Origin: Nocardioidaceae bacterium
GTDB lineage: Bacteria; Actinomycetota; Actinomycetes; Propionibacteriales; Nocardioidaceae
Assembly (NCBI GenBank): GCA_035262905.1
Contig: DATFRX010000404.1
Span: 1 to 36,157 of the forward strand
Length of the DNA stretch: 36,157 nt
Reading direction: 5' to 3'
The notes under the pieces are model-generated. The model saw only the letters and a list, made by a program, of their open reading frames with translations. It had not been told where the DNA came from and searched no databases. Shown piece after piece: positions 13,213 to 26,695 of this stretch. The translations under genes were made by a program, and so were the position numbers. The stretch's first letter is position 1, and each line of letters starts with the position of its first letter.

Positions 13213-13262
13213 GGGGAACTCCCGCCATACCGCAACGACTCAGCGGTCGAGAAAGGAATCCC

Positions 13263-16200
13263 ATGTTCGAACGTACCAAGCCGCGTCCCCGAGGACGCGC
13301 GCCCTCGAGACCACGGCGCCAGGCGCTGGCCCTGGCGGCCGGCGCCGTGCTGGCGCTCGGCCTGACCACCATCCCGGCCCAGGGACAAGCACAGTCCCAA
13401 CCGGCCGCGGTGGCCGACGACGCCAGCGCGGTGAACGTGCTGGTCTTCCACGGCCCGGCCGAGGAGCAGGACGACCCGGTGCTGGACGCCGCAGCGGCGA
13501 TCGAGCAACTGGGCAGCAGCGGCGGATTCGACGTCGACGTCTCGACCGACCCGTCGGTGTTCAGCGCCGAGGGTCTGCGGCCGTACCGCGGTGTGGTGTT
13601 CCTGTCCGCCGTCGGAGCGGAGCTGAGCAACGACCAGGAGCGGGAGCTCGAGGACTACATCGAGGCCGGTGGCGGCTTCCTGGGCATCCACGACGCCGCC
13701 AGGGCGCAGGAGCGCTCGCAGTGGTTCGGTGGCCTGATCGGCGCGCGTCCGGTCGGCGCGCTGCCCGAGCCGGAGCCGGTCGTGTCGAGTGCGACCACCG
13801 CGAGTGGCGACAACCCGCCGAACGAGACCAGGTTCCAGCTGGTCGACGGCGACATCGGCACCAAGTGGCTGACCTTCAATCCCACCGGCTGGGTGGCCGT
13901 CCGGCTCCAGGAGGCGGCCGCGATCAACCAGTACGCGCTGACGTCGGCCAACGACTCCCCCGAGCGCGACCCGCGCAACTGGGCGCTGCAGGGGTCCAAC
14001 GACGGCTCGACCTGGACCGACCTGGACACCCGGAGCGGGGAGAGCTTCCCGAACCGGTTCCAGACCAAGGACTACTCGTTCGAGAACACCACGTCGTACG
14101 AGTGGTACCGGATCGACATCAGGGCGAACGCCGGCGGCCCGCTCACCCAGCTGGCCGAGCTCGAGCTCTTCGCCGGTGACGCGACGCCACCTGAGGACCC
14201 GCCGGTGCAGGAGGCGACGGTCAACTTCGTCGACCGGCAGCACCCGGCCAACGACGGGCTGCCGCTCACCGAGACCCGAGACGACCAGTGGCTGAACTGG
14301 GACACCAACCCGGTCGGCCAGGTCCACACCGTCGCGCAGGTGGACGAGTCGACCTACGACCCGGGTCGGGGCGCCAACGGTCCGTTCCATCCGATCTCGT
14401 GGTGCCGCGACTACGACGGCGGCCGGTCGTTCTACACCGGCATGGGAGCCACCGCCGACGGCTACGGCGACGGCGACTTCCAGGACCACTTGATGGGTGC
14501 CATCCAGTGGACGACCGGCATGGTCCGCGGCGACTGCCAGGCGACCATCGCGTCGAACTACCGGATCGAGCGACTCGTCACCCAGGGTCCGGCGCCGTTC
14601 GATCTCAACGACATCGGCGAGATCCACGGCCTGGACGTCGCGGCTGACGGCTCGGTGTTCTACATCGGCAAGTCGGCCTGCCCGTCCGGCCCGATCGCTT
14701 CGTGGGACAACCCGAACGTCGGCCTCGGCTGCGGCACCGTGCACCGGTGGGACCCCGACACCAAGCAGCCCAAGCTACTCGCGACGCTGCCGGCGTTCGG
14801 TAACCGCGGCAGTGGCGACGAGTCGGTCAAGGCCGAGGACGGCCTGGTCGGCATCGCGCTCGACCCGAAGTTCCTGCAGAACGGCTGGATCTACCTGTAC
14901 TGGATGCCGCAGGCGTCGGTCGACCGCACCCGGCACACCGGCGAGCGGACGATCTCGCGGTTCACCTACGACAAGCAGACCAACACGATCGACATGAACA
15001 GCCGGGTCGACCTGCTCAAGTGGGAGATCCAGGTGCACTTCTGCTGCCATGCCGGTGGCGGGATGGACTTCGACTCCGACGGCAACCTCTACATCGGTGT
15101 CGGCGACTCCAACTCGTCCGGCGGCTCCAACGGTTACTCGGGCAACAACTGGACCCAGGAGTTCGGTGGCTACTCCTACCAGGACGCCCGCCGTACGGCA
15201 GGCAACACCAACGACCTGGACGGCAAGATCCTGCGGATCCACCCCGAGCCCGACGGCACGTACACGATCCCGGACGGCAACCTGTTCCCCGAGTCGGAGG
15301 ACCCGGGCAACAAGACCCGGCCGGAGATCTATGTGATGGGCGTACGCAACATCTCGACGCTCTTCGTCGACCCGACGACCGACCTGCTCCACGCGGCCTG
15401 GGTCGGCCCGGACGCCGGCAGCCCGAGCCCGGAGCTGGGGCCGGCGAAGTACGAGACCGCCACCATCATCACGTCGGCCGGCAACCAGGGATGGCCCTAC
15501 TGCATGGGCAACGGCCAGCCGTACCGCGACCGGAGCAACGAGGACGCGAGCATCCTCACCGGCTGGTACGACTGCGACAATCTGCAGAACAACTCGCCAC
15601 GCAACACCGGCCTGGTGAACCTGCCGCCGGCGCGGGACAACATGATCTGGTACTCGCCGCAGGGTGGCGGACCGGTGTTCCCGGAGCGGTCCGACGGCAG
15701 TGGGATCCCGACGTACAACAACACGGAAACCACGTTCACCGAGCCGTACCTGCGGGGCGGCTGCCAGGCAATCATGACCGGCCCGGTCTATCACCAGTCG
15801 CTGATCACGCAGAAGAACAGTGACGTCGCGTGGCCGTCGTACTGGGAGGACAAGTGGTTCCTCGGTGACGAGTGCAACCCGAACAACCGGGTCGCGCTCA
15901 CCGTCGATCCCGACGGGATCGAGGACGCGCAGCCCCCGGTGTTCGCCGAGAGCCTGCGCGAGATCATCCCCGGCGGCGCTGCCAACCTGCAGAGCTGGAT
16001 GATGACCTCACGGTTCGGTCCGGACGGCGCCCTCTACATGGGCGACTACGGGGGCGGCTTCTTCAGCCTCAACCAGAACCAGAAGCTGATTCGGGTCGTC
16101 TACGACGGTGGTCCGCCGACTCCGGGTCCCACCGCGTCGTCGGTCGCCGTCAACAACACGCCGATGACGATCGCGTTCAGCGGCGAGAAGTCCGGCGGCG

Positions 16201-17261
16201 TCAGCTACCAGTGGGACTTCGGCGACGGCACCCATTCGTCGTCGGCCAACCCGCGGCACACCTATGTCGAGGGCGGCAGTCACACCGCAACGCTAACGGT
16301 GACCTACGCCGACGGTGAGAAGGCCAGCACGCAGGTCGAGGTCGACGTGAGCTGCGCCGAGCCCGACACCCGGGACACGGTCTGGTTCCGTGACACCGAC
16401 ACCGGCGTGACCAACCACTCGCTGGGCGGCGGCTGCACGATCAACGACCTGATCGACGACGAGCGCGACTACCCGGACCACGGTACGTTCGTCGACACCG
16501 TCGCCGGCCTGGCTGAGCGGATGGCCGACGCGGGTTTGATCAGCGGCTCCGAGGCCGGACGGCTGACCAGCGCTGCGGCGCGAACCGACATCGGCTCGCC
16601 GTCTGGTGCACCTGGCTACATTCCGTTGTTCGACGGAACAGCCGAGTCGCTGCAGGGCTGGTCGCAGGCTCCGGGCGGTGAGTTCGTGTTGCAGCCAGAC
16701 GGCACGATGCGCACCACCGGCGGTCTGGGCATGCTGTGGTACAAGGATGCGTCGTTCGCTGACTACTCGCTCAAGCTGGAGTTCCGGGACATCTCGCCGG
16801 GCAACGGGCGGGCCAACAGCGGCGTGTTCATCCGGTTCCCCGATCCGCGTCAACCGCTGGACGAGCGACCCGAATGCGGACGCATCGGCGCCGCCCGTAC
16901 TTCGCAGGCCTGGGTGGCCATCAACTGTGGCCACGAGATCCAGATCTACGACGGCGCCACCGGTGAACCGCGGAAGACGGGGTCGGTCTACCTGTTCAAG
17001 GAGAACAACCTCGAACAGGCCCGACCGACGCCGAAGGGTGTTTGGAACGACTACGAGATCCGCGTCGTCGGCCAGCACTTCACGATCATCCGCAACGGCG
17101 TGGTGATCAACGAGTTCGACAACACCCCCGGCCAGCAGCCGGACCGTGCCGGTGACCCGCCGACGGACCTGCGGCAGTTCACCGAGGGCTTCATCGGACT
17201 GCAGAACCACAGCAACGCCGATGTGGTCGAGTTCCGCAACGTACGGGTGCGCGAGCTCTAG
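13263..17261 (+). CDS. Exported multidomain protein: ThuA-like domain with nested F5/8-type-C (discoidin) insertion + PQQ/sGDH-type beta-propeller + PKD + helical linker + DUF1080 (3-keto-disaccharide hydrolase family) domain (paralog 2 of 3)
   Basis: ATG at 13263 follows GAGAAAGGA. Signal: RPRRQALALAAGAVLALGLTTIPAQG. ThuA-like: VLVFHGP...GGGFLGIHDAA ... HPISWCRDYDGGRSFYTGMG. Discoidin-like: GDIGTKWLTF...RNWALQGSNDGSTW. Propeller: CCHAGGGMDFDSDGNLYIGVGD, NDLDGKILRI, PEIYVMGVRN, QGWPYC. PKD: YQWDFGDGTHSS. DUF1080-like: FDGTAESLQGW...GFIGLQNHSNADVVEFRNVRV. Confidence 0.85.
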   Translation: MFERTKPRPRGRAPSRPRRQALALAAGAVLALGLTTIPAQGQAQSQPAAVADDASAVNVLVFHGPAEEQDDPVLDAAAAIEQLGSSGGFDVDVSTDPSVFSAEGLRPYRGVVFLSAVGAELSNDQERELEDYIEAGGGFLGIHDAARAQERSQWFGGLIGARPVGALPEPEPVVSSATTASGDNPPNETRFQLVDGDIGTKWLTFNPTGWVAVRLQEAAAINQYALTSANDSPERDPRNWALQGSNDGSTWTDLDTRSGESFPNRFQTKDYSFENTTSYEWYRIDIRANAGGPLTQLAELELFAGDATPPEDPPVQEATVNFVDRQHPANDGLPLTETRDDQWLNWDTNPVGQVHTVAQVDESTYDPGRGANGPFHPISWCRDYDGGRSFYTGMGATADGYGDGDFQDHLMGAIQWTTGMVRGDCQATIASNYRIERLVTQGPAPFDLNDIGEIHGLDVAADGSVFYIGKSACPSGPIASWDNPNVGLGCGTVHRWDPDTKQPKLLATLPAFGNRGSGDESVKAEDGLVGIALDPKFLQNGWIYLYWMPQASVDRTRHTGERTISRFTYDKQTNTIDMNSRVDLLKWEIQVHFCCHAGGGMDFDSDGNLYIGVGDSNSSGGSNGYSGNNWTQEFGGYSYQDARRTAGNTNDLDGKILRIHPEPDGTYTIPDGNLFPESEDPGNKTRPEIYVMGVRNISTLFVDPTTDLLHAAWVGPDAGSPSPELGPAKYETATIITSAGNQGWPYCMGNGQPYRDRSNEDASILTGWYDCDNLQNNSPRNTGLVNLPPARDNMIWYSPQGGGPVFPERSDGSGIPTYNNTETTFTEPYLRGGCQAIMTGPVYHQSLITQKNSDVAWPSYWEDKWFLGDECNPNNRVALTVDPDGIEDAQPPVFAESLREIIPGGAANLQSWMMTSRFGPDGALYMGDYGGGFFSLNQNQKLIRVVYDGGPPTPGPTASSVAVNNTPMTIAFSGEKSGGVSYQWDFGDGTHSSSANPRHTYVEGGSHTATLTVTYADGEKASTQVEVDVSCAEPDTRDTVWFRDTDTGVTNHSLGGGCTINDLIDDERDYPDHGTFVDTVAGLAERMADAGLISGSEAGRLTSAAARTDIGSPSGAPGYIPLFDGTAESLQGWSQAPGGEFVLQPDGTMRTTGGLGMLWYKDASFADYSLKLEFRDISPGNGRANSGVFIRFPDPRQPLDERPECGRIGAARTSQAWVAINCGHEIQIYDGATGEPRKTGSVYLFKENNLEQARPTPKGVWNDYEIRVVGQHFTIIRNGVVINEFDNTPGQQPDRAGDPPTDLRQFTEGFIGLQNHSNADVVEFRNVRVREL

Positions 17262-17270
17262 ATCCATCGT

Positions 17271-17309
17271 CCGGTCGGCGCGAACCGAGTCCCGGTTCGC
17301 GCCGACCGG
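17271..17309 (+). terminator. Strong hairpin terminator after the 13263-17261 gene
   Basis: CCGGTCGGCGCGAACCG (17271-17287) pairs perfectly with CGGTTCGCGCCGACCGG (17293-17309). This gives a 17 bp stem and a 5 nt loop, starting 10 nt after the TAG. Confidence 0.75.
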
Positions 17310-17375
17310 CGTTAGCGGTTGGCGGTCGTACTGTGCGACCGACCGGATGTGCGACCGAGCGGAGCCGGTCACTCC

Positions 17376-17442
17376 GTTTCGAAAATTACTTTCGAAAGTT
17401 CGTTCATGACTATTGCTACTAACTGTAATTAGCCCGTAACTT
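17376..17442 (+). promoter_or_regulatory. AT-rich promoter/operator region, copy B
   Basis: Candidate -35 TTGCTA (17413-17418), an 18 nt spacer, then -10 TAACTT (17437-17442). Perfect palindromes TTTCGAAA (17377-17384) and ACTTTCGAAAGT (17388-17399) lie about one helical turn apart upstream of the -35. Confidence 0.45.
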
Positions 17443-17606
17443 TAGGGGTCAGCACCACCGGAGGGGCTGGCTATGGCGATAGTTTCGTTACCTCTCGGAA
17501 AAACCTTCGTCCGCAAGGCGTGCCTACTCGGGCTCAGCGCGACGCCGGCTCTTCTCGCGTCCGCCCCCTGCGCCATTCGGCGCGGCCAGCTTCTAGGAGG
17601 AGCACG

Positions 17607-18905
17607 ATGCGTGCATCCAAATCCAACCCAGTCCGGAGGGCCCTGAGCCGTCGTCGCTTCCTCGGCACCACCGCCGGTCTCACCCTCGGTGCGGCTGCCG
17701 GAGGCATCGCCCCGCTCGCCGGAGCGGCCGCAGCGGCGCCGAGCGGTCGGCTGATCCCGGCCGGCAAGGTCGGGACCATCACCTTCACCCAGCGCGACGT
17801 CCCCGGCCGGCTCGCGATCTCGACCGGCAACCCGACCATGGGTTTCCTGGGCGGCGACAACTTCCCCCAGGACCCCACCGACCTCGGCCCGCTCGTCCCG
17901 CTGCCGGGCGGCTGGCGTGAGCTGTTCGAGTTCTTCGCCAACGTCGGCATCCATCAGGTGGAGTTCGCCGGCTACGGGCAGAACGCGAACAACCCGGGTG
18001 GTAACGCGGGCTATCCGAACGACGGCAACGCCGCCGGCCGGGCCGCCTACCTCGAATACGCCGGCCGGATCCGCGGCTTCCTCGACGAGTTTGGCCTCGA
18101 GGCGATCGGCAACCACGGGTTCATCCCCAACACCTGGTTCGGCCCGAACAGCGCGGGCGGCACCATGACAGCGGCCGACGAGCTGCGCCTGCGTACGGAG
18201 CTCGAGTTCGCGGCGATCCTCGGCACCCCGTTCATGGGAACCGGCAACGACCCGACCAGCGCCAACAACCGCAACATCGAGCCGTGGACGATCGCCTGCG
18301 AGAAGTGGACCGCGCTCAACCAGATCAGCGTCAACGAGTTCGGCATCCACATGTACACGCACAACCACTCGCCGGCGTACAACTTCCTCCAGGACGGGCC
18401 GATGGTGACCGTCACCGAGGACCGCGTGACCGGCGCTCCGATCGCGCCGACGCAGGTGCGCGCGGAGTCGGGCAAACGGCTGATGCAGCACTACCTCGAC
18501 AACACCGACCCGGGCCTGGTCCAGATCGAGATGGACATCTACTGGGCGCACGTGGCGCAGCACCAGTGGCGGTGGCGCTACGACGAGAACGGCGCCCGCG
18601 TCGAGGACATCTTCGACCCGCTGGCCACGGTGGCGCGGCAGACCCAGCGCTATCCGCTCTACCACGCCAAGGACGGCGACCGGACGCTCGATCCGCCCGG
18701 TGTCGGCAACGGCTACAACTTCGTGCCGTTCGGCGACGCGAGCAGTGACATCGACTTCGAGACGTTCTTCGCCGGACAGGGCGCGAAGGGTTACCACAAC
18801 CCGAACTACGAGCAGGACAACGCACCCGGCGGTACGGCCGACCCGGGCCGCTCGCTGCGGTTCACCGAGTTCAGCGCGTTCAACATGAACAACCTGCGCG
18901 GCTGA
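17607..18905 (+). CDS. Tat-exported sugar phosphate isomerase/epimerase (xylose-isomerase-like TIM barrel)
   Basis: ATG at 17607 lies 4 nt after AGGAGGAG. Twin-arginine signal: SRRRFLGTTAGLTLGAAAGGIAPLAGAAAAAP. Motifs: VEFAGYG, MYTHNHSPAYNF, IEMDIYW, LYHAKDG. Confidence 0.8.
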   Translation: MRASKSNPVRRALSRRRFLGTTAGLTLGAAAGGIAPLAGAAAAAPSGRLIPAGKVGTITFTQRDVPGRLAISTGNPTMGFLGGDNFPQDPTDLGPLVPLPGGWRELFEFFANVGIHQVEFAGYGQNANNPGGNAGYPNDGNAAGRAAYLEYAGRIRGFLDEFGLEAIGNHGFIPNTWFGPNSAGGTMTAADELRLRTELEFAAILGTPFMGTGNDPTSANNRNIEPWTIACEKWTALNQISVNEFGIHMYTHNHSPAYNFLQDGPMVTVTEDRVTGAPIAPTQVRAESGKRLMQHYLDNTDPGLVQIEMDIYWAHVAQHQWRWRYDENGARVEDIFDPLATVARQTQRYPLYHAKDGDRTLDPPGVGNGYNFVPFGDASSDIDFETFFAGQGAKGYHNPNYEQDNAPGGTADPGRSLRFTEFSAFNMNNLRG

Positions 18906-18923
18906 TCCCCTTCAGCAACGGCA

Positions 18924-18971
18924 ACGGCTCCGATCGCGATGTCGATTGGCCTCGAACGCGACCGGAGCCGT
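18924..18971 (+). other. Intercistronic hairpin (possible partial terminator or mRNA-stability element)
   Basis: ACGGCTCCGATCGCG (18924-18938) pairs with CGCGACCGGAGCCGT (18957-18971). There are 14 base pairs plus one mismatch and an 18 nt loop. Only about 30 nt containing an RBS separate it from the 19001 start. Confidence 0.45.
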
Positions 18972-19000
18972 GAGCAGGAACCCCTAGAAAGAGGACTCCT

Positions 19001-22000
19001 ATGAGACAACGTAGCAACCGGCTGCGCAGACGCCTGCAAGCCGCGGTCGCCGGGGTGGGTCTCGCCGCCGGTGGACTGGCGGCCGTGGCGCCGCTATCGA
19101 CGACGGCAGCGGCCGCACCCGACGACAACGAGGGCATGCAGTACCGCGTGCTCGTGTTCACCAAGTCCGCCGACGGACCCAGCCCTGCGACCGAAGCCGG
19201 TGTCGCGGCGATCCGCGCGCTCGGCCAGGAGCACCGGTTCACGGTGCAGGTCACCGACGACGCGAGGAAGTTCGACCAGGAGCACCTGAAGCAGTACCGG
19301 ACCGTGGTCTTCCTCAACACCGCTGGCGACGTGCTCACCGATGCCCAGCAGAACGCGTTCGAAGCGTACTTCGCCGACGGCGGCGGTTTCGTCGGCATCG
19401 GCTCGGCCGTCGAGCTCGAGCCCGACTGGCAGTTCTACACCGACCTGATCGGCACCCGCGCGACCAGCAAGACCGACGTCCAGCCGGGAACGATCAAGGT
19501 CGCCGACCGGGTCCACGACGCCTCCAAGGACCTGCCGGAGTACTGGACGCGCACCGACGCCTGGTACAACTTCGCCCGCAACGTACGCGGCGAGAGCCAC
19601 GTGCTCGCGACCGTCGTGGAGCACGTCGACGACCTCGGGTCGTTCGAGATCCAGCCCTGGGGCGGCCGGCTCGAGGGCATCGAGGGCGGCACGATGGGCG
19701 CCGACCACCCGGTGACCTGGTGCAAGGACTGGCGCGGCGGGCGTTCGTTCTACAGCTCGCTCGGCAACACGGCGGCGAGCTTCGGCGAGTCCGAGCTGCG
19801 CTCGCATCTGGCCGGCGCGATCGGCTGGGCCGCGGGCCAGGCCGACCCGGTCTTCAGTGACTGCGGCGCGACCGTGCTCGCCAACTACCAGCAGACCGCG
19901 GTCGCACTGCCGCCGAACATCAGTGAGCCGATCGGATTCGACACCCTCCCGGACGGGCGCGTCATCCAGACCGACCGCCGCGGCGGCGTCCGACTCCACA
20001 ACCCGGAGACGAACACCACCACCGTCCTCGCCCAGATCCCGGTGTACACCAACAGCGAGGACGGCATGTACGGCCCGGCGATCGACAACCACTTCGGGAC
20101 CAATCACTGGATCTACCTGTACTACGCACCGCCCACGGTGGAGGACGTCAAGCTCTCCACGGGCGAGGTCGTCACGCAGACCACACCGACGGCCAACGCG
20201 CCAACCACCGGTGCGAACCCGGCGGTGTGGGACCCCTGGGTCGGCTACTTCCAGCTGTCCCGGTTCAAGTTCGTCGATGCCACGGCATCTGATCCGGCCC
20301 ATCTCGACTTGGGGTCGGAGCAGCAGATCATGCGGGTGCCGGTCAACCGCGGGGCGTGCTGTCACGTCGCCGGTGACATCGACTTCGACACGCACAACAA
20401 CCTGTGGATGGTCACCGGAGACGACACGCCGGCCGGCGGTGGCAACTCCGGTGGGTTCAGCCCGCACAACGACATGATGACCGCCGACGGCCAGTTCAAC
20501 GCCCCGTTCGTCGACGCCCGGCGCTCGGCGATGAACACCAACGACCTGCGTGGCAAGGTGCTGCGGATCACGGTCGACGACGACATCGCGGCGGCGGACG
20601 AGAACGAGTTCGGCGGCGCGTACACGGTGCCGGACGGCAACCTGTTCCCGGTCGGTGCCGACAAGACCCGTCCGGAGATCTACGCGATGGGCTTCCGCAA
20701 CCCGTTCCGGATCCAGGTCGACAGCAACGACGTCGCCTACGTCACCGACTACTCGCCGGACTCGAACACGCCGCAGAACTTCCGCGGTCCGGCCGGAACC
20801 GGGCGAGTCGAGATCATCCGGGAGCCGGCCAACTACGGCTGGCCGCTGTGCTATCGGCAGGACCTGCCGTACTACCGCTGGAACTTCAACACGAGTCAGC
20901 CGCTCGACAACCCGGCGCAGACCTACGAGTGCGACAACCCCACGAAGGGACCCGACAACACGTCGCGATGGAACCTCGAAGGCGGTCCGACCGTGGAGCC
21001 GGGCCGGGTTCAGACACCACCCATCAAGAACCCGGATGTCTGGTACTCCTTCACACCGGAGAACCGGGCCGACAACCCGCTCGGCACGCCGTGCTTCGCC
21101 TACTACAACGGCTCCGGCACGACCCAGTGCCCGCGGCTGTTCCCGGAGCTCGGCACCGGTGGAGTCGGGCCGCACGGCGCCGACAAGTACGAGTACGACC
21201 CGGACAACCCCGATCCGACGAAGCTGCCGCCGTACTACGACGGCTCGGTCTTCTTCGGCGAGTTCACCCGCGACATGCTGCGGGAGATCCGGTTCGACTC
21301 GCAGGGCCGGGTGTTCAAGATCAACAACCTGCTGGACTGCGGCGGGCTGACACCCACTCGGGTCCCGCAGACCAACCGGCCGTTCGAGTGCGACAACCCG
21401 ATGGACCTGCAGTTCGACGGCAGCGGGCACTTCTACCTGCTGGCGTACGGCGACGGGTTCTTCAACATCAACAACGACGCCGGGCTGTACCGCTGGGACT
21501 ACGTCAAGGGCCAACGGGCGCCGATCCCGGTGCTGTCGGCCAATCCGACGAGTGGGTCGGCGCCGTTGACCGTGGAGTTCTCGAGCAACGGCTCGCGTGA
21601 CCCGGACCCGGCTGACTCGATCCGCTTCGAGTGGGACTTCAACGGTGACGGCACGATCGACTCGATCGACGCCGATCCGCAGTTCACGTACACGACGCCG
21701 GGCCAGTACACGGCGCGGCTGACCGTGTACGACTCGAGCGGCCAGTCGGCGTCGGCGAACACGACGATCACCGTCGGGAACACCGCACCGACCGTTTCGG
21801 TCGACACACCGGTCGAGGGCGGCCTGTTCGCCTTCGGTGAGTCGATCCCGTTCGAGGTGACCGTGACCGATCCCGAGGACGGCACGATCGACTGCGGCCG
21901 GGTCGAGGTGACCTTCGTCCTCGGCCACGACGAGCACGGCCATGCCGAGGCGACCGTCAGCGGCTGCGAAGGCGTGTTGCCGACGTACGCCGAGGACGTC

Positions 22001-22549
22001 TCGCACGGCGGCAACGTGTTCGGCGTCGTCAGCGCGTCGTACACCGACCTGGGCGGCTCGGCCGGCGTACCGGCACTCACCACGGTGGATCAGGTGAACG
22101 TCCGGCAGAAGCGCCAGGAGGTCGAGTTCGTGCGCGACGAGTCCGGGACGAACGTGGCCACGACCAACGATCCGGCCGGCGGCGGTCAGCACCGCGGCAG
22201 CCTCGGCAGCGGTGACTGGGTCGCGCTGAACGGCCCGTTCGACCTGGAGAACATCGACTCGCTCACCTTCCGGGTGGCCAGTACGTCGGGCGCGGTCCCG
22301 GCGGGCAACCCGATGGCGGCGGTCGAGGTCCGGCTGGACGCCGTGGACGGGCCGATCCTGACCACGGCGACCCTCACCTCCACCGGGAACACCGCGACCT
22401 GGCAGAGCCAGACCGTGCCGGTCACCGATCCCGGCGGATCGCACCGGATGTTCCTCGTGTTCCGTTCGGTGCCGGGCGGCCAGACCGGCGGCAACCTGTT
22501 CAACCTGAACTGGGCGGAGTTCGTCGGCGCGGGCGTGTCCCAGCCCTAG
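19001..22549 (+). CDS. Exported multidomain protein: ThuA-like domain + PQQ/sGDH-type beta-propeller + PKD + His-cluster module + C-terminal carbohydrate-binding (CBM6/35-like) module (paralog 3 of 3)
   Basis: ATG follows GAAAGAGGA. Signal: RLRRRLQAAVAGVGLAAGGLAAVAPLSTTAAAAP. ThuA-like: YRVLVFTKS...GGGFVGIGSA...HPVTWCKDWRGGRSFYSSLG. Propeller: CCHVAGDIDFDTHNNLWMVTGDD, NDLRGKVLRI, PEIYAMGFRNPFR, YGWPLC. PKD: FEWDFNGDGTIDS. C-terminal segment GDWVALNGPFDLENIDSLTFRVAS...GNLFNLNWAEF. Confidence 0.85.
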   Translation: MRQRSNRLRRRLQAAVAGVGLAAGGLAAVAPLSTTAAAAPDDNEGMQYRVLVFTKSADGPSPATEAGVAAIRALGQEHRFTVQVTDDARKFDQEHLKQYRTVVFLNTAGDVLTDAQQNAFEAYFADGGGFVGIGSAVELEPDWQFYTDLIGTRATSKTDVQPGTIKVADRVHDASKDLPEYWTRTDAWYNFARNVRGESHVLATVVEHVDDLGSFEIQPWGGRLEGIEGGTMGADHPVTWCKDWRGGRSFYSSLGNTAASFGESELRSHLAGAIGWAAGQADPVFSDCGATVLANYQQTAVALPPNISEPIGFDTLPDGRVIQTDRRGGVRLHNPETNTTTVLAQIPVYTNSEDGMYGPAIDNHFGTNHWIYLYYAPPTVEDVKLSTGEVVTQTTPTANAPTTGANPAVWDPWVGYFQLSRFKFVDATASDPAHLDLGSEQQIMRVPVNRGACCHVAGDIDFDTHNNLWMVTGDDTPAGGGNSGGFSPHNDMMTADGQFNAPFVDARRSAMNTNDLRGKVLRITVDDDIAAADENEFGGAYTVPDGNLFPVGADKTRPEIYAMGFRNPFRIQVDSNDVAYVTDYSPDSNTPQNFRGPAGTGRVEIIREPANYGWPLCYRQDLPYYRWNFNTSQPLDNPAQTYECDNPTKGPDNTSRWNLEGGPTVEPGRVQTPPIKNPDVWYSFTPENRADNPLGTPCFAYYNGSGTTQCPRLFPELGTGGVGPHGADKYEYDPDNPDPTKLPPYYDGSVFFGEFTRDMLREIRFDSQGRVFKINNLLDCGGLTPTRVPQTNRPFECDNPMDLQFDGSGHFYLLAYGDGFFNINNDAGLYRWDYVKGQRAPIPVLSANPTSGSAPLTVEFSSNGSRDPDPADSIRFEWDFNGDGTIDSIDADPQFTYTTPGQYTARLTVYDSSGQSASANTTITVGNTAPTVSVDTPVEGGLFAFGESIPFEVTVTDPEDGTIDCGRVEVTFVLGHDEHGHAEATVSGCEGVLPTYAEDVSHGGNVFGVVSASYTDLGGSAGVPALTTVDQVNVRQKRQEVEFVRDESGTNVATTNDPAGGGQHRGSLGSGDWVALNGPFDLENIDSLTFRVASTSGAVPAGNPMAAVEVRLDAVDGPILTTATLTSTGNTATWQSQTVPVTDPGGSHRMFLVFRSVPGGQTGGNLFNLNWAEFVGAGVSQP

Positions 22550-22559
22550 CCGTCCGCTC

Positions 22560-22612: not shown

Positions 22613-22684
22613 CGCCATCAGCTCACGAACTTCGGAGAGTGTCAGCCATGCTTCTGCAACAAATCTGCAAAAGATTGGCGCTAT

Positions 22685-22718: not shown

Positions 22719-22801
22719 GTCGATCCAGTGAACGAACCTCGCGGATCGGCCGTGTGATGGCAATCCCGCCGTCATCAAGGCGCACGCGAGAGGAGCGCCG
22801 A

Positions 22802-24061
22802 GTGGTCACAGGAACGACGGCCAAGGCGGCTGGCCCACGCCAAGCCGCTCAGTTCGGTCGTCGCGGCGAGAACATGGCCATCCTTTTGGGGCTGCTTCGT
22901 ACCGAAGGTCCCTGGTCCCGGGCCCGCCTCGCCGAGATGTCCGGTCTCAGCCGGGCCACCGTCGCCTCCGTCGTCGATGACCTCGCCTCGCGGGGGCTCG
23001 TCGTGCTCGGCGACCGCCGCGCGGACGGGTCGCCCGGCCGGCCGGGTCAGTCCGTCGCGCTCGACGGCCGGGACCTGTGGGGCTTGGGGCTGCAGGTCGG
23101 TGCGCATCATGTCGCCGCCGTCGTCTTGGACCTGTCCGGGCGCACCGTGTTCGAGCAGCGCACGGCGGTCCCCGAGGGGGCCGACAACTGGCGCGGCGTC
23201 ATGGAGCACCTGGCCGGTCTGGTCGCCGCCGCGCGGGAGGCGGCGGACGAGCACGGCGCCCAGCTGCTGGAGTGCCAGATCGCCGTGCCCGGGCTGGTGG
23301 ACTCCGTGCACGGTGTGGTCGTCGCCGCACCCAACATCGGCTGGCAGACCCTGGCGGTCGCCGACGAGGTCAGCGCACATCTCAGCGATGCCCTGCCGAT
23401 CCGGGTCGCCAACGACGCCAACCTGACCGCCGTCGCCGAGCACGCCTACGGCACCGTCGCCGGCACGTCCGACATCGTCGTCCTCACCGGCGAGCTCGGT
23501 GTCGGGGCCGGACTCGTCGTTCAGAGCTGGCCGCTGACCGGAGCCGAGGGCTACGCCGGAGAGGTCGGGCACGTCCAGATCGACCCGGCCGGCCGCGACT
23601 GCGCCTGCGGCCGACGCGGTTGCTGGGAGACGATGGTCGGCTTCCGGGCGGTGCTGCACGCAGCCGCGGTGGGAGACGACCCGGTACGCGATCCGGCCGT
23701 CGACGTCGAGGTTCGGGTCAACGACATCGCCCGGCGCGCGGCCGACGGTGACACCCGTACGCTCAACGCCCTGCATGCGATCGGCGTCGATCTGGGTCGC
23801 GGTGCGGCCTGGCTGGTCAACGTGTTCAACCCAGGGGCTTTGGTGCTCGGCGGCTTCTTCGCGCCGCTCGCCCCCTATCTCATCGAGTCGATGCGGGCCG
23901 AGATGGCGCCCCGCATCCTGGCGGCCGGGCTCGGCGGCTGCCGCGTCGTGCAGTCCGCCCTCGGCTTCACGGCCGCTGCCCAGGGCGGTGCGCATGTCGC
24001 CCTGTCGTCCGTCTTCGCCGACCCCGCCGGGGTCCAGGTCTCCACTGGAGGTGCCCGATGA
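22802..24061 (+). CDS. ROK-family transcriptional regulator (winged-HTH + ROK sugar-sensing domain)
   Basis: wHTH: LLGLLRTEGPWSRARLAEMSGLSRATVASVVDDLASRGLV. ROK zinc motif: GHVQIDPAGRDCACGRRGCWE. The start is uncertain. GTG at 22802 lies 6 nt after GAGGAG and is preferred over 22754. Confidence 0.8.
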   Translation: MVTGTTAKAAGPRQAAQFGRRGENMAILLGLLRTEGPWSRARLAEMSGLSRATVASVVDDLASRGLVVLGDRRADGSPGRPGQSVALDGRDLWGLGLQVGAHHVAAVVLDLSGRTVFEQRTAVPEGADNWRGVMEHLAGLVAAAREAADEHGAQLLECQIAVPGLVDSVHGVVVAAPNIGWQTLAVADEVSAHLSDALPIRVANDANLTAVAEHAYGTVAGTSDIVVLTGELGVGAGLVVQSWPLTGAEGYAGEVGHVQIDPAGRDCACGRRGCWETMVGFRAVLHAAAVGDDPVRDPAVDVEVRVNDIARRAADGDTRTLNALHAIGVDLGRGAAWLVNVFNPGALVLGGFFAPLAPYLIESMRAEMAPRILAAGLGGCRVVQSALGFTAAAQGGAHVALSSVFADPAGVQVSTGGAR

Positions 24062-25563
24062 CCGACCCCATCCTGCGCATGACCGGGATCGTCAAGCAGT
24101 TCCCGGGCGTACGAGCGCTCGACGGGGTCGATCTGGATGTGCAGCCGGGCGAGGTGCACTGCCTGCTCGGCCAGAACGGTGCTGGCAAGTCGACCTTGAT
24201 CAAGGTGCTTGCCGGCGCGCACCAGCCGGACGAGGGCACCATCACCTGGCTGGGCGAACAGGTGCGGCTGTCCGACCCGACCGCGGCCAACCGCCGGGGG
24301 ATCGCGACCATCTACCAGGAGCTCGACCTGGTCGACGGACTGTCGGTCGCGGCCAACATCTTCCTCGGACACGAGCTGGCCCTCGCCGGGTTCGCCCGAC
24401 GCGGAGACATGCGCCGGGCGGCCAAGCAGCTGCTGGCCCGGCTGGGTCATCCCGAGTTGTCGCCGAGCCGAGAGGTCGGCCGGCTGTCCGCAGCGGGCAA
24501 GCAGATCGTCAGCATGGCGCGGGCGCTGTCGCACGACGCGCGGCTGATCATCATGGACGAGCCGTCGGCGGTGCTCGACAAGAACGAGGTGGAGCGGCTC
24601 TTCAAGGTCATCCGCGACCTGACCGGCGAGGGAGTCGCGGTCGTCTACATCTCTCACCGCCTCGAGGAGATCCGCGAGATCGGCGACCGGGTCACCGTGC
24701 TCAAGGACGGCCGAACTGTCGCCACCGGGCTCCCCGCCAAGACGACGCCCACCAACGAGGTGATCCGGCTGATGACCGGACGCACCATCGAGTACGTCAT
24801 CCCGGACCGTCGGGAGCAGCCGGCGCCGAGTGAGCCGGTGCTCTCGGTGCAGGGCCTGCGCCGTACTGGTGAGTTCGAGGACATCTCGTTCGAGGTGCGT
24901 GCGGGCGAGATCCTCGGACTGGCCGGGCTGGTCGGATCGGGCCGGTCGGAGATCCTCGAGACCGTCTACGGCGCCCGGCGGGCCCATGGCGGCCGGGTCG
25001 AGGTCGCCGGAAAACGCGTGCGCAACGGCTCGGTGTCGTCCGCCGTCGCCGCGGGACTGGGTCTGTGCCCCGAGGAGCGCAAGAGCCAGGCGCTGCTGCT
25101 CGGCGAGTCGGTCTCGGGCAACGTCACGCTCGCGTCCCTCCCCAGGTTCGCCAAAGCGTCGTTCCTCGACCGGTCCGCCGAGCGCGCGGCCGCCCGCGAG
25201 CAGATCAAGGCGCTCGACCTGCGCCCGCCGGATCCCGGACGCGAGGTCCGGCTGTTCTCCGGAGGCAACCAGCAGAAGGTGGTCCTCGCGCGCTGGCTGA
25301 CCGTGGGCTGCCGGGTGCTGCTCCTCGACGAACCGACCCGCGGCGTGGACGTCGGAGCGCGTACCGAGCTCTACAAGCTGATCCAACGCCTCGCGGACGA
25401 CGGCGTCGCCATCGTCCTGGTGTCCAGCGAGGTCCCCGAGGTCCTCGGTCTGTCCGACCGGGTGATCGTCCTCCGTGAAGGGCAGGTCATGCACGAAGGG
25501 CCGGCCGCCGACATCGACGAGCACCAGGTCCTCGACCTGGTCATGGAAGGGAGCGCCGCGTGA
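24058..25563 (+). CDS. CUT2-type sugar ABC transporter ATP-binding protein (two fused ABC domains; RbsA/XylG-like)
   Basis: ATGA overlap with the regulator stop. Walker A GQNGAGKST, signature LSAAGKQ, Walker B LIIMDEPS. The second domain has FSGGNQQK and LLLDEPTRGVD. Confidence 0.9.
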   Translation: MTDPILRMTGIVKQFPGVRALDGVDLDVQPGEVHCLLGQNGAGKSTLIKVLAGAHQPDEGTITWLGEQVRLSDPTAANRRGIATIYQELDLVDGLSVAANIFLGHELALAGFARRGDMRRAAKQLLARLGHPELSPSREVGRLSAAGKQIVSMARALSHDARLIIMDEPSAVLDKNEVERLFKVIRDLTGEGVAVVYISHRLEEIREIGDRVTVLKDGRTVATGLPAKTTPTNEVIRLMTGRTIEYVIPDRREQPAPSEPVLSVQGLRRTGEFEDISFEVRAGEILGLAGLVGSGRSEILETVYGARRAHGGRVEVAGKRVRNGSVSSAVAAGLGLCPEERKSQALLLGESVSGNVTLASLPRFAKASFLDRSAERAAAREQIKALDLRPPDPGREVRLFSGGNQQKVVLARWLTVGCRVLLLDEPTRGVDVGARTELYKLIQRLADDGVAIVLVSSEVPEVLGLSDRVIVLREGQVMHEGPAADIDEHQVLDLVMEGSAA

Positions 25564-26621: not shown

Positions 26622-26695
26622 CCGTCCGCATGTCCCCAAGCCCCCCGCTGTATGAGCTGGACCTGCCGGTCCGTCACTTCATCAAGGAGTAACCG

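What the first reader, a model, noticed from the sequence alone, without database searches (positions are those of the whole stretch)
13263..22549. Exported ThuA + PQQ-propeller + DUF1080 / Tat-TIM-barrel gene set: possible quinoprotein-driven keto-glycoside cleavage system
The domains have established roles elsewhere. ThuA is associated with 3-keto-trehalose formation together with ThuB. DUF1080 is the Pfam 3-keto-disaccharide hydrolase family. Xylose-isomerase-like TIM barrels include lyases of C-glycoside and 3-keto-glycoside pathways. In known oxidation/elimination/hydration routes these partner with NAD-dependent Gfo/Idh/MocA or FAD oxidases. Here ThuA-like and DUF1080 modules are fused to an sGDH-type PQQ beta-propeller in signal-peptide-bearing proteins of 1182-1332 aa. 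The TIM barrels carry twin-arginine signals, implying folded and probably metal-loaded export. This suggests an extracytoplasmic version in which a quinoprotein does the oxidation. To my knowledge that arrangement is uncharacterised. Discoidin, PKD and CBM-like modules suggest polymeric or surface-bound glycan substrates.
Basis: inference. Interest (0 to 1): 0.75.

Follow-up and report, generated by a model that had tools for sequence, protein, structure and literature searches.

The report
Secreted quinoprotein-like keto-sugar glycan cleavage locus
A soil actinobacterium encodes giant secreted proteins that join a probable PQQ-type sugar-oxidising propeller to modules known to cut oxidised (3-keto) sugars, which suggests, but does not prove, a new way of breaking down glycans outside the cell.

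Summary
Gene A (13263-17261) is ThuA (split by a discoidin insert) + GSDH propeller + PKD + DUF1080. Gene C (19001-22549) is ThuA + GSDH + PKD + Ig-like + CBM6. Gene B (17607-18905) is a Tat-exported, very divergent xylose-isomerase-like TIM barrel.

New evidence links the parts:
- B lies next to a C-type gene in 35 of 54 fully flanked genome loci from Actinomycetota and Chloroflexota.
- Other actinobacteria fuse the propeller to the TIM barrel or to DUF1080 in one polypeptide.
- B and a second Tat-TIM (T1, 2099-3043) keep all seven active-site residues of AL1, the solved 3-keto-beta-glucoside 1,2-lyase.
- Downstream lie a monosaccharide-type ABC importer, a levoglucosan-dehydrogenase-like Gfo/Idh/MocA enzyme and a homologue of 2-hydroxy-3-keto-glucal hydratase.

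Every step of the known oxidise-eliminate-hydrate-reduce pathway is therefore present except an exported NAD or FAD oxidase. The propeller sits in that place.

The propeller keeps the sGDH catalytic His, the Arg/Asn dyad and the Gly-Pro calcium loop. It lacks two PQQ-carboxylate arginines. PQQ use and the carbon that is oxidised remain untested.

Verdict: a plausible, widespread, uncharacterised variant of a known pathway, supported only by genomic evidence.

The parts
13263..17261 (+). Gene A, 1332 aa secreted multidomain protein. Layout: signal peptide; ThuA N-half (~13404-13787); F5/8-type-C discoidin insert (13794-14159); ThuA C-half (14193-14513); sGDH-type propeller (~14586-16127); PKD (16140-16340); linker; DUF1080 (16614-17252).
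   Evidence: Pfam. More than 100 full-length orthologs at 63-92% identity share the same seven-Pfam architecture across Actinomycetota.
15042..15050 (+). Cys-Cys-His motif of the A propeller (residues 594-596). The His aligns with the catalytic base His144 of sGDH.
   Evidence: Profile alignment to 1c9u. All 120 A orthologs have CC-H. Coordinates.
16614..17252 (+). DUF1080 (3-keto-glycoside lyase/hydratase family) domain of A, with the motifs NSG (16815-16823), E-I-Q (16935-16946) and Q-N-H (17199-17210).
   Evidence: Pfam E 2e-36 over the full profile. A profile of this domain hits the DUF1080 structures 8tda, 8rr2 and 9fbe at E about 1e-14. Conserved residues compared with the BT2 list in 10.1101/2024.03.25.586180.
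17607..18905 (+). Gene B, 432 aa, Tat-exported (RRRFL at 17649-17663) divergent xylose-isomerase-like TIM barrel. Predicted AL1-type keto-glycoside lyase. Motifs: HNH 18360-18368, EMDIYW 18528-18545, HAKD 18663-18674, YEQDN 18807-18821.
19001..22549 (+). Gene C, 1182 aa secreted protein. Layout: ThuA (19145-19831); sGDH-type propeller (19853-21505; CCH at 20357-20365, GFRN at 20690-20701, RGP at 20783-20791); PKD (21518-21775); His-rich Ig-like domain (21776-22120; GHDEHGH at 21923-21943); CBM6 (22130-22525).
2..1963 (+). Gene Z (5' end cut by the window edge): sGDH-type propeller + PKD + His-rich Ig-like domain. It is 42% identical to C.
   Evidence: Z is paired with T1 in 9 of 10 related metagenome loci.
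2099..3043 (+). Gene T1, Tat-exported (RRKFL at 2162-2176) TIM barrel. It is a clear homologue of the Alistipes 3-keto-beta-glucopyranoside-1,2-lyase AL1.
   Evidence: Pfam AP_endonuc_2. PDB 8tcd E 2e-20, with active-site residues aligned.
3168..4679 (+). Secreted Glycoamylase/DUF3131-family protein (by my recollection the family of GH144-type beta-1,2-glucanases). Possibly the conventional glycanase of the same locus.
   Evidence: Pfam. Follows T1 in the related loci L072-L078.
22754..27736 (+). ROK-family regulator (22754-24061) and a monosaccharide-type ABC importer: double ATPase (24058-25563), permease (25560-26621) and RbsB/YtfQ-like binding protein (26696-27736).
   Evidence: Found beside B, C-type or Z-T1 genes in many loci.
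27842..29050 (+). Cytoplasmic Gfo/Idh/MocA oxidoreductase. Best NCBIfam match is levoglucosan (C3) dehydrogenase, below the family cut-off. Predicted 3-keto-sugar reductase/dehydrogenase.
   Evidence: 366 bits against a cut-off of 650.
29063..30244 (+). Bona fide actinobacterial xylose isomerase XylA.
   Evidence: NCBIfam TIGR02631, 635 bits against a cut-off of 447.
30276..31280 (+). Cytoplasmic TIM barrel. Close homologue (probable ortholog) of SCO6571 (PDB 2zds) and homologue of the A. tumefaciens 2-hydroxy-3-keto-glucal hydratase AtHYD.
   Evidence: PDB 2zds E 3.5e-175 and 8ro4 E 3e-38.

Best explanation
A, B and C, together with the Z-T1 pair upstream and the transporter/GFO/TIM3 genes downstream, form one glycan-utilisation system. 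It runs the known oxidise-eliminate-hydrate-reduce ('3-keto') route of glycoside cleavage, with the first steps outside the cell.

**Proposed sequence of steps.**
1. CBM6, discoidin and PKD modules hold the secreted proteins on a polymeric or surface glycan.
2. The sGDH-type propeller oxidises a sugar hydroxyl to a ketone. It probably carries scavenged PQQ and Ca2+, like the secreted fungal AA12 enzymes. Position 3 is the most likely site.
3. The Tat-exported AL1-type TIM barrels (B, T1) cleave beta-linked keto-glycosides by 1,2-elimination. The DUF1080 domain of A cleaves alpha-linked ones and may also hydrate the glycal.
4. The keto-monosaccharide or glycal product enters through the CUT2-type ABC transporter.
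5. In the cytoplasm it is hydrated by the AtHYD/SCO6571-like TIM3 and reduced by the LgdA-like Gfo/Idh/MocA enzyme to an ordinary sugar.

**Shown:** domain identities, active-site conservation in B, T1 and DUF1080, conserved adjacency, and fusions.

**Inferred:** PQQ use, the carbon oxidised, the substrate, the electron acceptor and the role of ThuA. For the acceptor, a redox-neutral cycle like that of the NAD-bound AL3 is possible.
For: **1. All non-oxidase steps are present and exported appropriately.**
- T1 hits AL1 (8tcd) at E 2e-20. His103, His178, His180, Asp211, Trp214 and His237 are identical, with an E-x-D in place of the AL1 E-x-E that carries catalytic Glu272.
- B aligns to T1 over 289 columns (hhalign 96%). 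The same residues are invariant in 31 B orthologs.
- Foldseek places AL1 among the top three hits for B.
- The DUF1080 domain of A matches the whole Pfam profile and keeps the NSG, E-x-Q, Y and Q-x-H motifs.
- TIM3 hits AtHYD at E 3e-38. GFO is levoglucosan-dehydrogenase-like.

**2. No exported Gfo/Idh/MocA or FAD oxidase is found in the window**.

**3. Gene linkage.**
- B is adjacent to a C-type gene, on the same strand, in 35 of 54 fully flanked loci (40 of 70 overall). Both gene orders occur. The loci span Actinomycetota and Chloroflexota.
- Z-T1 pairs occur in 9 of 10 metagenome loci. In L080 the pair sits directly before ROK-ABC-GFO.

**4. Rosetta-stone fusions, confirmed by Pfam.**
- GSDH-PKD-CBM6-TIM (P0263, Georgenia).
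- GSDH-PKD-TIM-TIM-SLH (P0269, Litorihabitans).
- ThuA-GSDH-PKD-CBM6-DUF1349-TIM (P0280).
- ThuA-GSDH-DUF1080 (P0281), and similar architectures in P0284 and P0312.

**5. The propeller is a true sGDH relative.**
- The family profile hits 1c9u at E 5e-26 over nearly its full length.
- The equivalents of His144, Arg228/Asn229 and Gly247 are invariant, and that of Pro248 nearly invariant, in a 17-sequence alignment at 34-48% identity to C.
- The roles of these residues are taken from PMC6881810.

**6. Strong purifying selection.** A is 63-68% identical over 1332 aa across actinobacterial orders.
Against: - The PQQ-carboxylate ligands Arg406 and Arg408 of sGDH are replaced by a variable residue and Met. 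Gln231 is lost. Lys377 is Arg in C and Z but absent in A.
- As far as I know, and in the papers read (PMC6881810, PMC4133262), every characterised sGDH, Asd or AA12 enzyme oxidises the anomeric carbon, not C3.
- By my recollection of published surveys, most actinobacteria lack pqq biosynthesis genes. This could not be checked here.
- No electron acceptor is evident. The His-rich Ig-like domain has no structural match to a redox protein.
- About a third of the B loci lack a nearby C-type gene.
- The cytoplasmic genes include a genuine xylose isomerase. Part of the locus may therefore be plain xylose catabolism.
- There are no biochemical data for any member.
Confidence: 0.5

Rival explanations
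1. The propeller is a conventional C1 (anomeric) PQQ aldose or pyranose dehydrogenase, like sGDH, Asd or fungal AA12. It oxidises reducing ends, or the keto-sugar products released at the cell surface, or it supplies electrons to another enzyme. The TIM and DUF1080 lyases receive their keto-substrates from a different oxidase that has not been identified.
For: Closest solved relatives are sGDH and the Asd enzymes. The papers read describe C1 oxidation for this fold, and my recollection is that a keto-sugar (2-keto-glucose) is the best substrate of fungal AA12 CcPDH (PMC6881810; PMC4133262). The modular design with a CBM parallels CcPDH.
Against: It does not explain why the propeller is repeatedly fused to, or encoded beside, AL1-type and DUF1080 lyases. 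The window contains no alternative exported oxidase. The family was not matched to the AA12 structures at E<=0.01.
Confidence: 0.25
2. The propeller is not a redox enzyme. It would be a glycan-binding scaffold, like the cofactor-free Hedgehog-interacting protein propeller, or a lyase or lactonase. The oxidation would then be done elsewhere, or the TIM and DUF1080 modules would act on naturally occurring keto- or unsaturated sugars.
For: HHIP is also hit by the family profile (E 5e-15). Two PQQ-binding arginines are missing. ThuA has no known cofactor.
Against: The catalytic His, the Arg/Asn dyad and the Gly of the calcium loop are invariant across relatives that are only 34-48% identical to C, and the loop Pro is nearly so. 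A Cys-Cys pair next to the His is kept or lost as a unit. This conservation points to a pocket under catalytic selection rather than a scaffold.
Confidence: 0.15
3. The genes are neighbours only because they share regulation for plant-cell-wall sugar use, for example xylan and xylose. They have no common chemical pathway.
For: The downstream cluster holds a true XylA and a ribose/xylose-type ABC system under a ROK regulator. CBM6 modules often bind xylan. A is adjacent to B-C only in close relatives.
Against: Fusions into a single polypeptide in several genera and adjacency across two phyla in both gene orders go beyond co-regulation. All the enzymes belong to families of the same keto-sugar pathway.
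Confidence: 0.1

Closest known systems
Bacteroides thetaiotaomicron BT2156-2160 and Alistipes AL1-AL5, the periplasmic 3-keto glycoside cleavage pathway (PMC8121099; bioRxiv 10.1101/2024.03.25.586180)
   Same: Exported TIM-barrel lyase (AL1, matching T1 and B). Exported DUF1080 lyase/hydratase (AL2, matching the C-terminus of A). The steps run outside the cytoplasm. A cytosolic Gfo/Idh/MocA partner is present.
   Different: In that system the oxidant is a Tat-exported Gfo/Idh/MocA enzyme with tightly bound NAD (AL3/BT2158). Here no such protein is present, and an sGDH-type propeller fused to ThuA and CBMs takes its place. Here the lyases use Tat, whereas AL1 has a secretion (non-Tat) signal peptide and AL2 a lipoprotein signal. 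The host is Gram-positive, so the enzymes are truly extracellular. CBM6, PKD and discoidin modules point to polymer substrates.
Soluble PQQ glucose/aldose dehydrogenases (A. calcoaceticus sGDH 1C9U/1CQ1; E. coli YliI/Asd 2G8S; P. aerophilum 3A9G)
   Same: Six-bladed GSDH fold. Catalytic His, Arg/Asn dyad and Gly-Pro calcium loop are conserved. The GKxLR and NYGWP motifs are shared.
   Different: The propeller here is about 550 aa with large insertions. A Cys-Cys pair precedes the His where sGDH has Asp143. Arg406 and Arg408 are absent. It is embedded in proteins of 1100-2300 aa. Substrate and regiochemistry are unknown.
Fungal AA12 PQQ pyranose dehydrogenases (CcPDH, TrAA12; PMC4133262, PMC6881810)
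   Same: Secreted and modular. CcPDH has a CBM and an electron-transfer domain. The producing organism does not make the cofactor, so PQQ must be scavenged. Several bacterial PQQ ligands are not conserved, yet the enzyme is PQQ-dependent.
   Different: No cytochrome domain here. The window family is closer to sGDH and Asd than to AA12, because no AA12 structure was hit at E<=0.01. AA12 enzymes are not linked to lyases.
ThuAB of Sinorhizobium and Agrobacterium (3-keto-disaccharide formation), as cited in PMC8121099
   Same: A ThuA domain is associated with a sugar dehydrogenase and with 3-keto-sugar metabolism.
   Different: The partner here is a GSDH propeller fused in cis, not the NAD-dependent Gfo/Idh/MocA ThuB. 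The location is extracellular, whereas ThuAB acts after uptake by ThuEFGK (my recollection).
A. tumefaciens OGE / AtHYD / Gfo cluster and the levoglucosan LgdA-B1-B2-C pathway (PMC10628242, PMC7676230)
   Same: The cytoplasmic pair GFO + TIM3 matches the Gfo + AtHYD (8RO4) pair and the LgdA-type dehydrogenase.
   Different: Those pathways are entirely cytoplasmic and act on small glycosides or an anhydrosugar.

Membership tests
sGDH/Asd-type PQQ-dependent six-bladed propeller dehydrogenase (Pfam GSDH PF07995) | Significant match to the family model and to solved members | tested here: met
   Pfam GSDH E 3e-21 (A), 3.5e-19 (C) and 6e-29 (Z). The family profile hits 1c9u at E 5e-26 over profile positions 4-422 of 443, and 2ism, 3a9g and 2g8s at E 1e-24 to 1e-29.
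sGDH/Asd-type PQQ-dependent six-bladed propeller dehydrogenase (Pfam GSDH PF07995) | General-base His (sGDH His144) | tested here: met
   Invariant His in the 17-sequence alignment. It is His455 in C, His596 in A and residue 129 of the partial Z product.
sGDH/Asd-type PQQ-dependent six-bladed propeller dehydrogenase (Pfam GSDH PF07995) | Arg/Asn dyad at the PQQ quinone carbonyls (Arg228/Asn229), and the Gly-Pro calcium loop (Gly247/Pro248) | tested here: met
   G-x-R-N is invariant. In (R/L)-G-P the Gly is invariant and the Pro nearly invariant. Both align to these sGDH positions. The roles of the residues are from PMC6881810.
sGDH/Asd-type PQQ-dependent six-bladed propeller dehydrogenase (Pfam GSDH PF07995) | Basic and polar ligands of the PQQ carboxylates (Gln231, Gln246, Lys377, Arg406, Arg408) | tested here: not met
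   Arg406 aligns to a variable residue and Arg408 to Met. Gln231 aligns to Phe or Ser. Gln246 aligns to Arg in most family members (Leu in A). Lys377 aligns to Arg in 12 of 17 sequences but not in A. The list of sGDH ligands is from my recollection of Oubrie 1999, which was not held. AA12 enzymes also lack several of these residues yet use PQQ (PMC4133262).
sGDH/Asd-type PQQ-dependent six-bladed propeller dehydrogenase (Pfam GSDH PF07995) | PQQ binding, PQQ-dependent activity, and a source of PQQ (pqqABCDE or uptake) | not testable with these tools
AL1/BT1-type 3-keto-beta-glycoside 1,2-lyase (xylose-isomerase-like TIM barrel) | Homology to the solved lyase | tested here: met
   T1: 8tcd E 2e-20 and 8tcs E 8e-20. 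B: only E 0.14 by sequence profile, but Foldseek gives 8tcd at E 7e-8, rank 3, and hhalign to T1 gives 96% probability, E 2e-9.
AL1/BT1-type 3-keto-beta-glycoside 1,2-lyase (xylose-isomerase-like TIM barrel) | Metal ligands His178, Asp211 and His237; substrate ligands His103, His180 and Trp214; catalytic Glu272 | tested here: met
   - T1 has SSH, HNH, EIDIYW, HVKD and VEND at the aligned positions.
- B has H171, H253, H255, D311, W314, H354 and E403/D405. All are invariant in 31 orthologs and aligned through T1.
- The last position is E-x-D where AL1 has E-x-E, so which acid is the base is uncertain.
AL1/BT1-type 3-keto-beta-glycoside 1,2-lyase (xylose-isomerase-like TIM barrel) | Lyase activity on 3-keto-glycosides | not testable with these tools
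DUF1080 / 3keto-disac_hyd (AL2/BT2157 3-keto-alpha-glucoside lyase and glycal hydratase) | Full-length match to the family model and to solved members | tested here: met
   Pfam PF06439 E 2e-36, profile positions 1-187 of 187. A profile of the domain hits 4jqt, 3imm, 8rr2, 8tda and 9fbe at E 5e-27 to 6e-14.
DUF1080 / 3keto-disac_hyd (AL2/BT2157 3-keto-alpha-glucoside lyase and glycal hydratase) | Conserved channel residues of BT2 (Glu103, Asn134, Glu164, Gln166, Tyr190, Lys245, Gln273, His275) | tested here: inconclusive
   Motif-level matches in A: LKLEF, NSG, E-I-Q, SVY and Q-N-H. The 8tda alignment itself was not printed, and Lys245 could not be placed.
ThuA (PF06283) as part of a ThuAB-type 3-keto-disaccharide-forming dehydrogenase | ThuA domain present | tested here: met
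   E 7e-53 (A) and 1e-58 (C). The only solved relative is the uncharacterised 4jqs.
ThuA (PF06283) as part of a ThuAB-type 3-keto-disaccharide-forming dehydrogenase | Paired with a ThuB-type Gfo/Idh/MocA dehydrogenase | tested here: not met
   There is no Gfo/Idh/MocA domain in A or C and none adjacent. The only one in the window (27842-29050) lies 5 kb downstream, is cytoplasmic and is LgdA-like.
CAZy AA12 (fungal PQQ pyranose dehydrogenase) | Sequence membership | tested here: not met
   No AA12 structure (6JWF, 6I1T/6H7T) was among the PDB hits of the family profile at E<=0.01. The resemblance is functional and architectural only.

The most novel reading that the evidence does not exclude
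Soil Actinomycetota and Chloroflexota secrete a previously unrecognised class of carbohydrate-active 'auxiliary' enzymes. In these, an sGDH-type quinoprotein propeller oxidises sugar residues within polymers or glycosides at a non-anomeric carbon. The propeller carries a vicinal disulfide next to its catalytic His and loads PQQ scavenged from neighbouring bacteria. Fused or co-encoded AL1-type and DUF1080 lyases can then cleave alpha- and beta-glycosidic bonds by elimination outside the cell. This would be a non-Koshland, quinoprotein-driven route of polysaccharide depolymerisation. ThuA would be its so far unexplained obligatory partner.
Probability: 0.35. Interest if true: 0.85.

Novelty: new variant of a known kind. 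Interest (0 to 1): 0.65.

Why it matters
- **A function for a very large family of unknowns.** The propeller subfamily has 709 clusters (50% identity) at E<=1e-30. Gene A alone has hundreds of relatives, and all 120 listed are full-length orthologs with the same architecture. Sources name the members seen here only by domain: 'ThuA domain-containing', 'PQQ-dependent sugar dehydrogenase', or the misnomer 'cytochrome C'.
- **Extension of a recently discovered pathway.** If the reading is right, the oxidative-elimination route of glycan breakdown extends from gut Bacteroidota to soil Gram-positive bacteria. It would also extend from small glycosides in the periplasm to polymeric substrates outside the cell.
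- **New chemistry for a known enzyme type.** It would add a new reaction type to sGDH-type quinoproteins.
- **An ecological dependence.** Most actinobacteria probably do not make PQQ, so they would depend on PQQ released by other bacteria.
- **Potential tools.** It would provide broad-specificity tools for glycan deconstruction.
- **A handle on ThuA.** It offers a concrete experimental route to the long-unexplained ThuA domain.

Tried and rejected
- **Exact-sequence lookup of A:** found no contig.
- **Pfam and NCBIfam on B itself:** no hit. Orthologs, fold prediction and hhalign were needed instead.
- **Literature searches:** those for ThuA with PQQ, glycoside, cytochrome c or ThuB were swamped by unrelated 'Thua' terms and gave nothing on ThuA biochemistry. 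A search by PDB codes failed. No paper was found that links a GSDH/PQQ propeller to 3-keto-glycoside lyases.
- **Oubrie 1999 papers on sGDH:** not held. Residue roles were taken from PMC6881810 and from my own recollection.
- **Promoter and terminator scan of 12700-23000:** uninformative.
- **His-rich Ig-like domain as an electron-transfer (cupredoxin- or cytochrome-like) module:** the confident AF2 model (pLDDT 87.6) matched only generic FN3/Ig/PKD sandwiches at E>0.01. I dropped that idea.
- **Defining Z as a ThuA protein:** related loci show that most Z-type genes lack ThuA.
- **ebo gene cluster between T1 and A as part of the system:** it recurs nearby in related loci, but I found no mechanistic link. 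It is left as an aside.

Full report
**1. What is in the window**

The window is about 70% G+C, and nearly all credible genes lie on the + strand. Its first 7.7 kb are 99-100% identical at the protein level to the JGI metagenome contig Ga0126377_10008794 (L072). The nearest genome match for gene B is a Micromonosporaceae soil MAG, at 96% identity.

The finding's coordinates bracket three genes exactly.

- **A (13263-17261, 1332 aa).** Pfam gives ThuA (E 7e-53) in two stretches, split by an inserted F5/8-type-C discoidin domain. It also gives GSDH (E 3e-21), PKD (E 3e-14) and a full-length 3keto-disac_hyd/DUF1080 domain (E 2e-36).
- **C (19001-22549, 1182 aa).** ThuA (E 1e-58), GSDH (E 3.5e-19), PKD and CBM6 (E 5e-17). 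The CBM6 assignment is confirmed against solved CBM6 modules.
- **B (true start 17607, 432 aa).** It has a textbook Tat motif, SRRRFLG, but no Pfam or NCBIfam hit of its own.

- Only A carries DUF1080.
- B needed further work before it could be called a TIM barrel.
It is T1 (2099-3043, RRKFL, AP_endonuc_2). T1 follows a third, 5'-truncated propeller gene Z (2-1963), which is 42% identical to C.

**2. B and T1 are AL1-type lyase-like TIM barrels**

- Many orthologs of B (56-96% identical) carry PF01261 and PF10518.
- A 31-sequence profile of B weakly hits the sugar-phosphate-isomerase TIM barrels 3obe, 3l23, 8tcs and 8tcd.
- The AF2 model is mediocre (pLDDT 60, pTM 0.66). Even so, Foldseek returns only xylose-isomerase-like barrels. 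The top four hits include 8tcd, 'Alistipes 3-keto-beta-glucopyranoside-1,2-lyase AL1'.
- T1 matches AL1 directly by sequence (8tcd E 2e-20).
- hhalign of the B family against T1 gives 96% probability over 289 columns.

The AL1 paper lists the metal ligands His178, Asp211 and His237. It lists the substrate ligands His103, His180 and Trp214, and the catalytic Glu272. In the 8tcd chain these residues are numbered 23 lower.

- T1 shows SSH, HNH, E-I-D-I-Y-W, H-V-K-D and V-E-N-D at the aligned positions.
- B shows H171, H253, H255, D311, W314, H354 and E403-x-D405. All are invariant in its family.

Both proteins therefore pass the active-site test for this lyase family. One caveat is that the last acid sits in an E-x-D motif rather than E-x-E.

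**3. The DUF1080 domain of A**

[quoted passage not shown] They are not hydrolases.

The domain in A covers the entire Pfam profile. A profile built from it and its relatives hits the solved DUF1080 proteins, including 8tda, 8rr2 and 9fbe. The motifs corresponding to the BT2 channel residues are present: NSG, E-x-Q, Y and Q-x-H. Lys245 could not be placed, so I rate this test as inconclusive but favourable.

**4. The propeller**

*Breadth of the family.* A search of 1.84 billion cluster representatives with the C propeller found 709 clusters at E<=1e-30 and 3357 at E<=1e-3. Most are secreted proteins of 900-2300 aa.

*Relationship to solved enzymes.* A 17-sequence alignment (34-48% identical to C) used as a profile hits sGDH (1c9u) at E 5e-26 over almost its whole length. 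It also hits the aldose sugar dehydrogenases 2ism, 3a9g, 2g8s, 7cdy and 3das, and, more weakly, the cofactor-free HHIP.

*Mapping onto sGDH numbering.*

| sGDH residue | Equivalent in this family |
|---|---|
| His144 | invariant His of a C-C-H-x-G-G motif |
| Arg228/Asn229 | invariant G-x-R-N |
| Gly247/Pro248 | (R/L)-G-P (Gly invariant, Pro nearly so) |
| Lys377 | Arg in 12 of 17 sequences (not in A) |
| Gln231 | lost |
| Gln246 | Arg (Leu in A) |
| Arg406 | variable residue |
| Arg408 | Met |

The first three features are those the AA12 literature singles out as mechanistically essential: the His base, the Arg/Asx dyad at the quinone carbonyls and the calcium loop (PMC6881810). The fungal enzymes lack several bacterial PQQ ligands and yet are PQQ-dependent (PMC4133262). 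Sequence therefore supports a functional quinoprotein-type pocket but cannot prove it.

*A family-specific Cys-Cys pair.* A Cys-Cys pair immediately precedes the catalytic His. Of 75 representatives in which the motif could be read, 65 have CC, 10 have neither Cys, and none has just one. All 120 A orthologs have CC. This all-or-none pattern suggests a vicinal disulfide. A disulfide above the cofactor is a hallmark of many PQQ enzymes (PMC13088180), but to my knowledge it is not described for the sGDH type.

**5. Evidence that the parts work together**

*(a) Synteny.* The scan of one genome per species returned 71 B loci from Actinomycetota and Chloroflexota. The Actinomycetota include Streptomyces, Micromonospora, Dactylosporangium, Nocardioides, Jiangellaceae, Acidimicrobiia, Solirubrobacteraceae and Nitriliruptorales.

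- tblastn with the window's domains shows a C-type gene (ThuA-GSDH-PKD-Ig-CBM6) directly beside B, on the same strand. This holds in 35 of 54 loci with full flanks, and in 40 of 70 overall.
- The order is C then B in 25 loci and B then C in 15.
- Several other loci place B next to the ROK/ABC/GFO/TIM3 cluster instead.
- Z-T1 pairs occur in 9 of 10 metagenome loci. These are close relatives, so they carry limited independent weight.
- In L080 the Z-T1 pair directly precedes ROK-ABC-permease-SBP-GFO.

*(b) Fusions, confirmed by Pfam.*
- P0263: GSDH-PKD-CBM6-TIM.
- P0269: GSDH-PKD-TIM-TIM-SLH.
- P0280: ThuA-GSDH-PKD-CBM6-DUF1349-TIM.
- P0281: ThuA-GSDH-DUF1080.
- P0284 and P0312: DUF1080 at the same C-terminal position.

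The named fusion proteins come from Georgenia and Litorihabitans. The TIM barrel and DUF1080 are thus interchangeable appendages of the propeller.

*(c) Pathway completeness.* Downstream of C lie the following genes:
- a ROK regulator;
- a CUT2-type monosaccharide ABC importer;
- a cytoplasmic Gfo/Idh/MocA enzyme whose best model is levoglucosan (C3) dehydrogenase, at 366 bits and below the cut-off;
- a true XylA;
- TIM3, a close homologue (probable ortholog) of SCO6571 and a homologue of the 2-hydroxy-3-keto-glucal hydratase AtHYD (E 3e-38).

Every step of the known pathway is thus represented except an exported oxidase. No Tat-Gfo/Idh/MocA or FAD dehydrogenase is encoded in the window.

**6. 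Most likely mechanism**

I think the most likely mechanism is as follows.
1. Secreted, CBM-targeted propeller proteins oxidise a sugar hydroxyl of a glycan or glycoside.
2. B and T1 (for beta linkages) and the DUF1080 domain of A (for alpha linkages, plus hydration) cleave the activated bond by elimination.
3. The keto-monosaccharide or glycal is imported, hydrated by TIM3 and reduced by GFO.

Domain identities, active-site conservation, adjacency and fusions are shown. PQQ use, the carbon that is oxidised, the substrate, the electron acceptor and the role of ThuA are inferred.

Because the enzymes are extracellular, PQQ could be scavenged, as it is by fungal AA12 enzymes. Because the Bacteroides oxidase recycles its bound NAD by reducing the product, a comparable redox-neutral cycle is conceivable here. 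I give the specific model a probability of 0.5. The weaker statement, that these genes form one keto-sugar glycan-utilisation system, is more likely than that.

**7. Rival explanations**

- **Conventional C1 aldose or pyranose dehydrogenase (0.25).** This fits all known chemistry of the fold. It does not fit the repeated fusion to lyases.
- **Non-redox scaffold, lyase or lactonase (0.15).** The HHIP precedent and the missing arginines favour it. The invariant catalytic constellation argues against it.
- **Mere co-regulation with xylose catabolism (0.1).** The fusions argue against it.

**8. Comparison with what is known, and novelty**

The closest known system is the periplasmic BT2156-2160/AL1-5 pathway. 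An extracytoplasmic location is therefore not new. What would be new is the following set of features:
- the oxidising module: a ThuA-fused sGDH-type propeller in place of NAD-bound Gfo/Idh/MocA;
- the Gram-positive extracellular setting;
- Tat export of the lyases;
- the CBM-directed, probably polymeric, substrates.

In the held literature I found no paper linking GSDH/PQQ propellers or ThuA-GSDH proteins to 3-keto-glycoside lyases. A 2026 survey of six-bladed PQQ propellers does not mention ThuA in its main text. I classify the finding as a new variant of a known kind. It rests on genomic inference only.

**9. Things that led nowhere**

These are listed under 'tried and rejected'. The main gap is the PQQ question.

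Noticed in passing
window 4700-12841: A complete ebo-type gene cluster lies between T1/GH144-like and gene A. It comprises a myo-inositol-phosphate-synthase-like gene, a SCO3242-family/EboC-like prenyltransferase (361 bits), a TIM barrel, an EboA-domain protein, a TatD-like hydrolase, EboE (432 bits, equivalog) and an EboF-like phosphodiesterase, followed by a polyprenyl synthase. ebo genes recur near the propeller and TIM genes in related loci (L005, L006, L030, L059, L072-L078, L081). I found no mechanistic link.
   Followed up: partly
window 20357-20365 (C), 15042-15050 (A), 380-388 (Z): A Cys-Cys pair sits directly before the catalytic His of the propeller. Among 75 family representatives, 65 have both cysteines, 10 have neither and none has one. 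This suggests a vicinal disulfide beside the cofactor pocket, a feature known from eight-bladed PQQ dehydrogenases but, to my knowledge, not from the sGDH type.
   Followed up: partly
window 21776-22120 (C) and 1634-1960 (Z): An Ig-like beta-sandwich lies between PKD and CBM6. It has nearly invariant TDPEDG, two Cys and an L-G-H-D-x-H-G-H histidine cluster. Pfam gave no hit on it in C or Z, although some homologues carry PF17957. The AF2 model is confident (pLDDT 87.6) but has no significant PDB match. A metal site is possible. It is present in 56 of 150 family representatives.
   Followed up: partly
P0263, P0269, P0280, P0298 (Georgenia and Litorihabitans; source of P0298 not looked up): Single polypeptides fuse the GSDH propeller with one or two AL1-like TIM barrels. 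P0269 also carries SLH cell-wall anchoring repeats. P0298 is seen by sequence only. These are natural fusion constructs and would be good candidates for biochemistry.
   Followed up: yes
window 3168-4679: A secreted Glycoamylase/DUF3131-family protein (the family of GH144 beta-1,2-glucanases, by my recollection) sits directly after T1 and is conserved there in related contigs. It hints that beta-1,2-glucan or a related glucan could be the substrate of the Z-T1 module.
   Followed up: no
window 29063-30244: A genuine xylose isomerase (TIGR02631, 635 bits) is inserted between the LgdA-like oxidoreductase and the AtHYD-like TIM barrel. It is present at this position in only a few related loci (L009, L061, L068).
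   Followed up: partly
window 13794-14159: In A the discoidin (F5/8 type C) domain is inserted inside the ThuA fold rather than appended to it. This insertion is conserved in all 120 listed orthologs.
   Followed up: partly
window 31359-32927: An ATP-grasp protein with a PGM1 C-terminal domain, followed by DegV (33035-33898) and a ComEA-like protein (33941-34963). They appear unrelated to the sugar locus.
   Followed up: no
one search hit list: Several UniRef and NCBI entries name orthologs of A 'cytochrome C', although the Pfam lists for those entries show no cytochrome or heme domain. My guess is that the name was carried over from distant homologues that do carry a cytochrome c domain.
   Followed up: no
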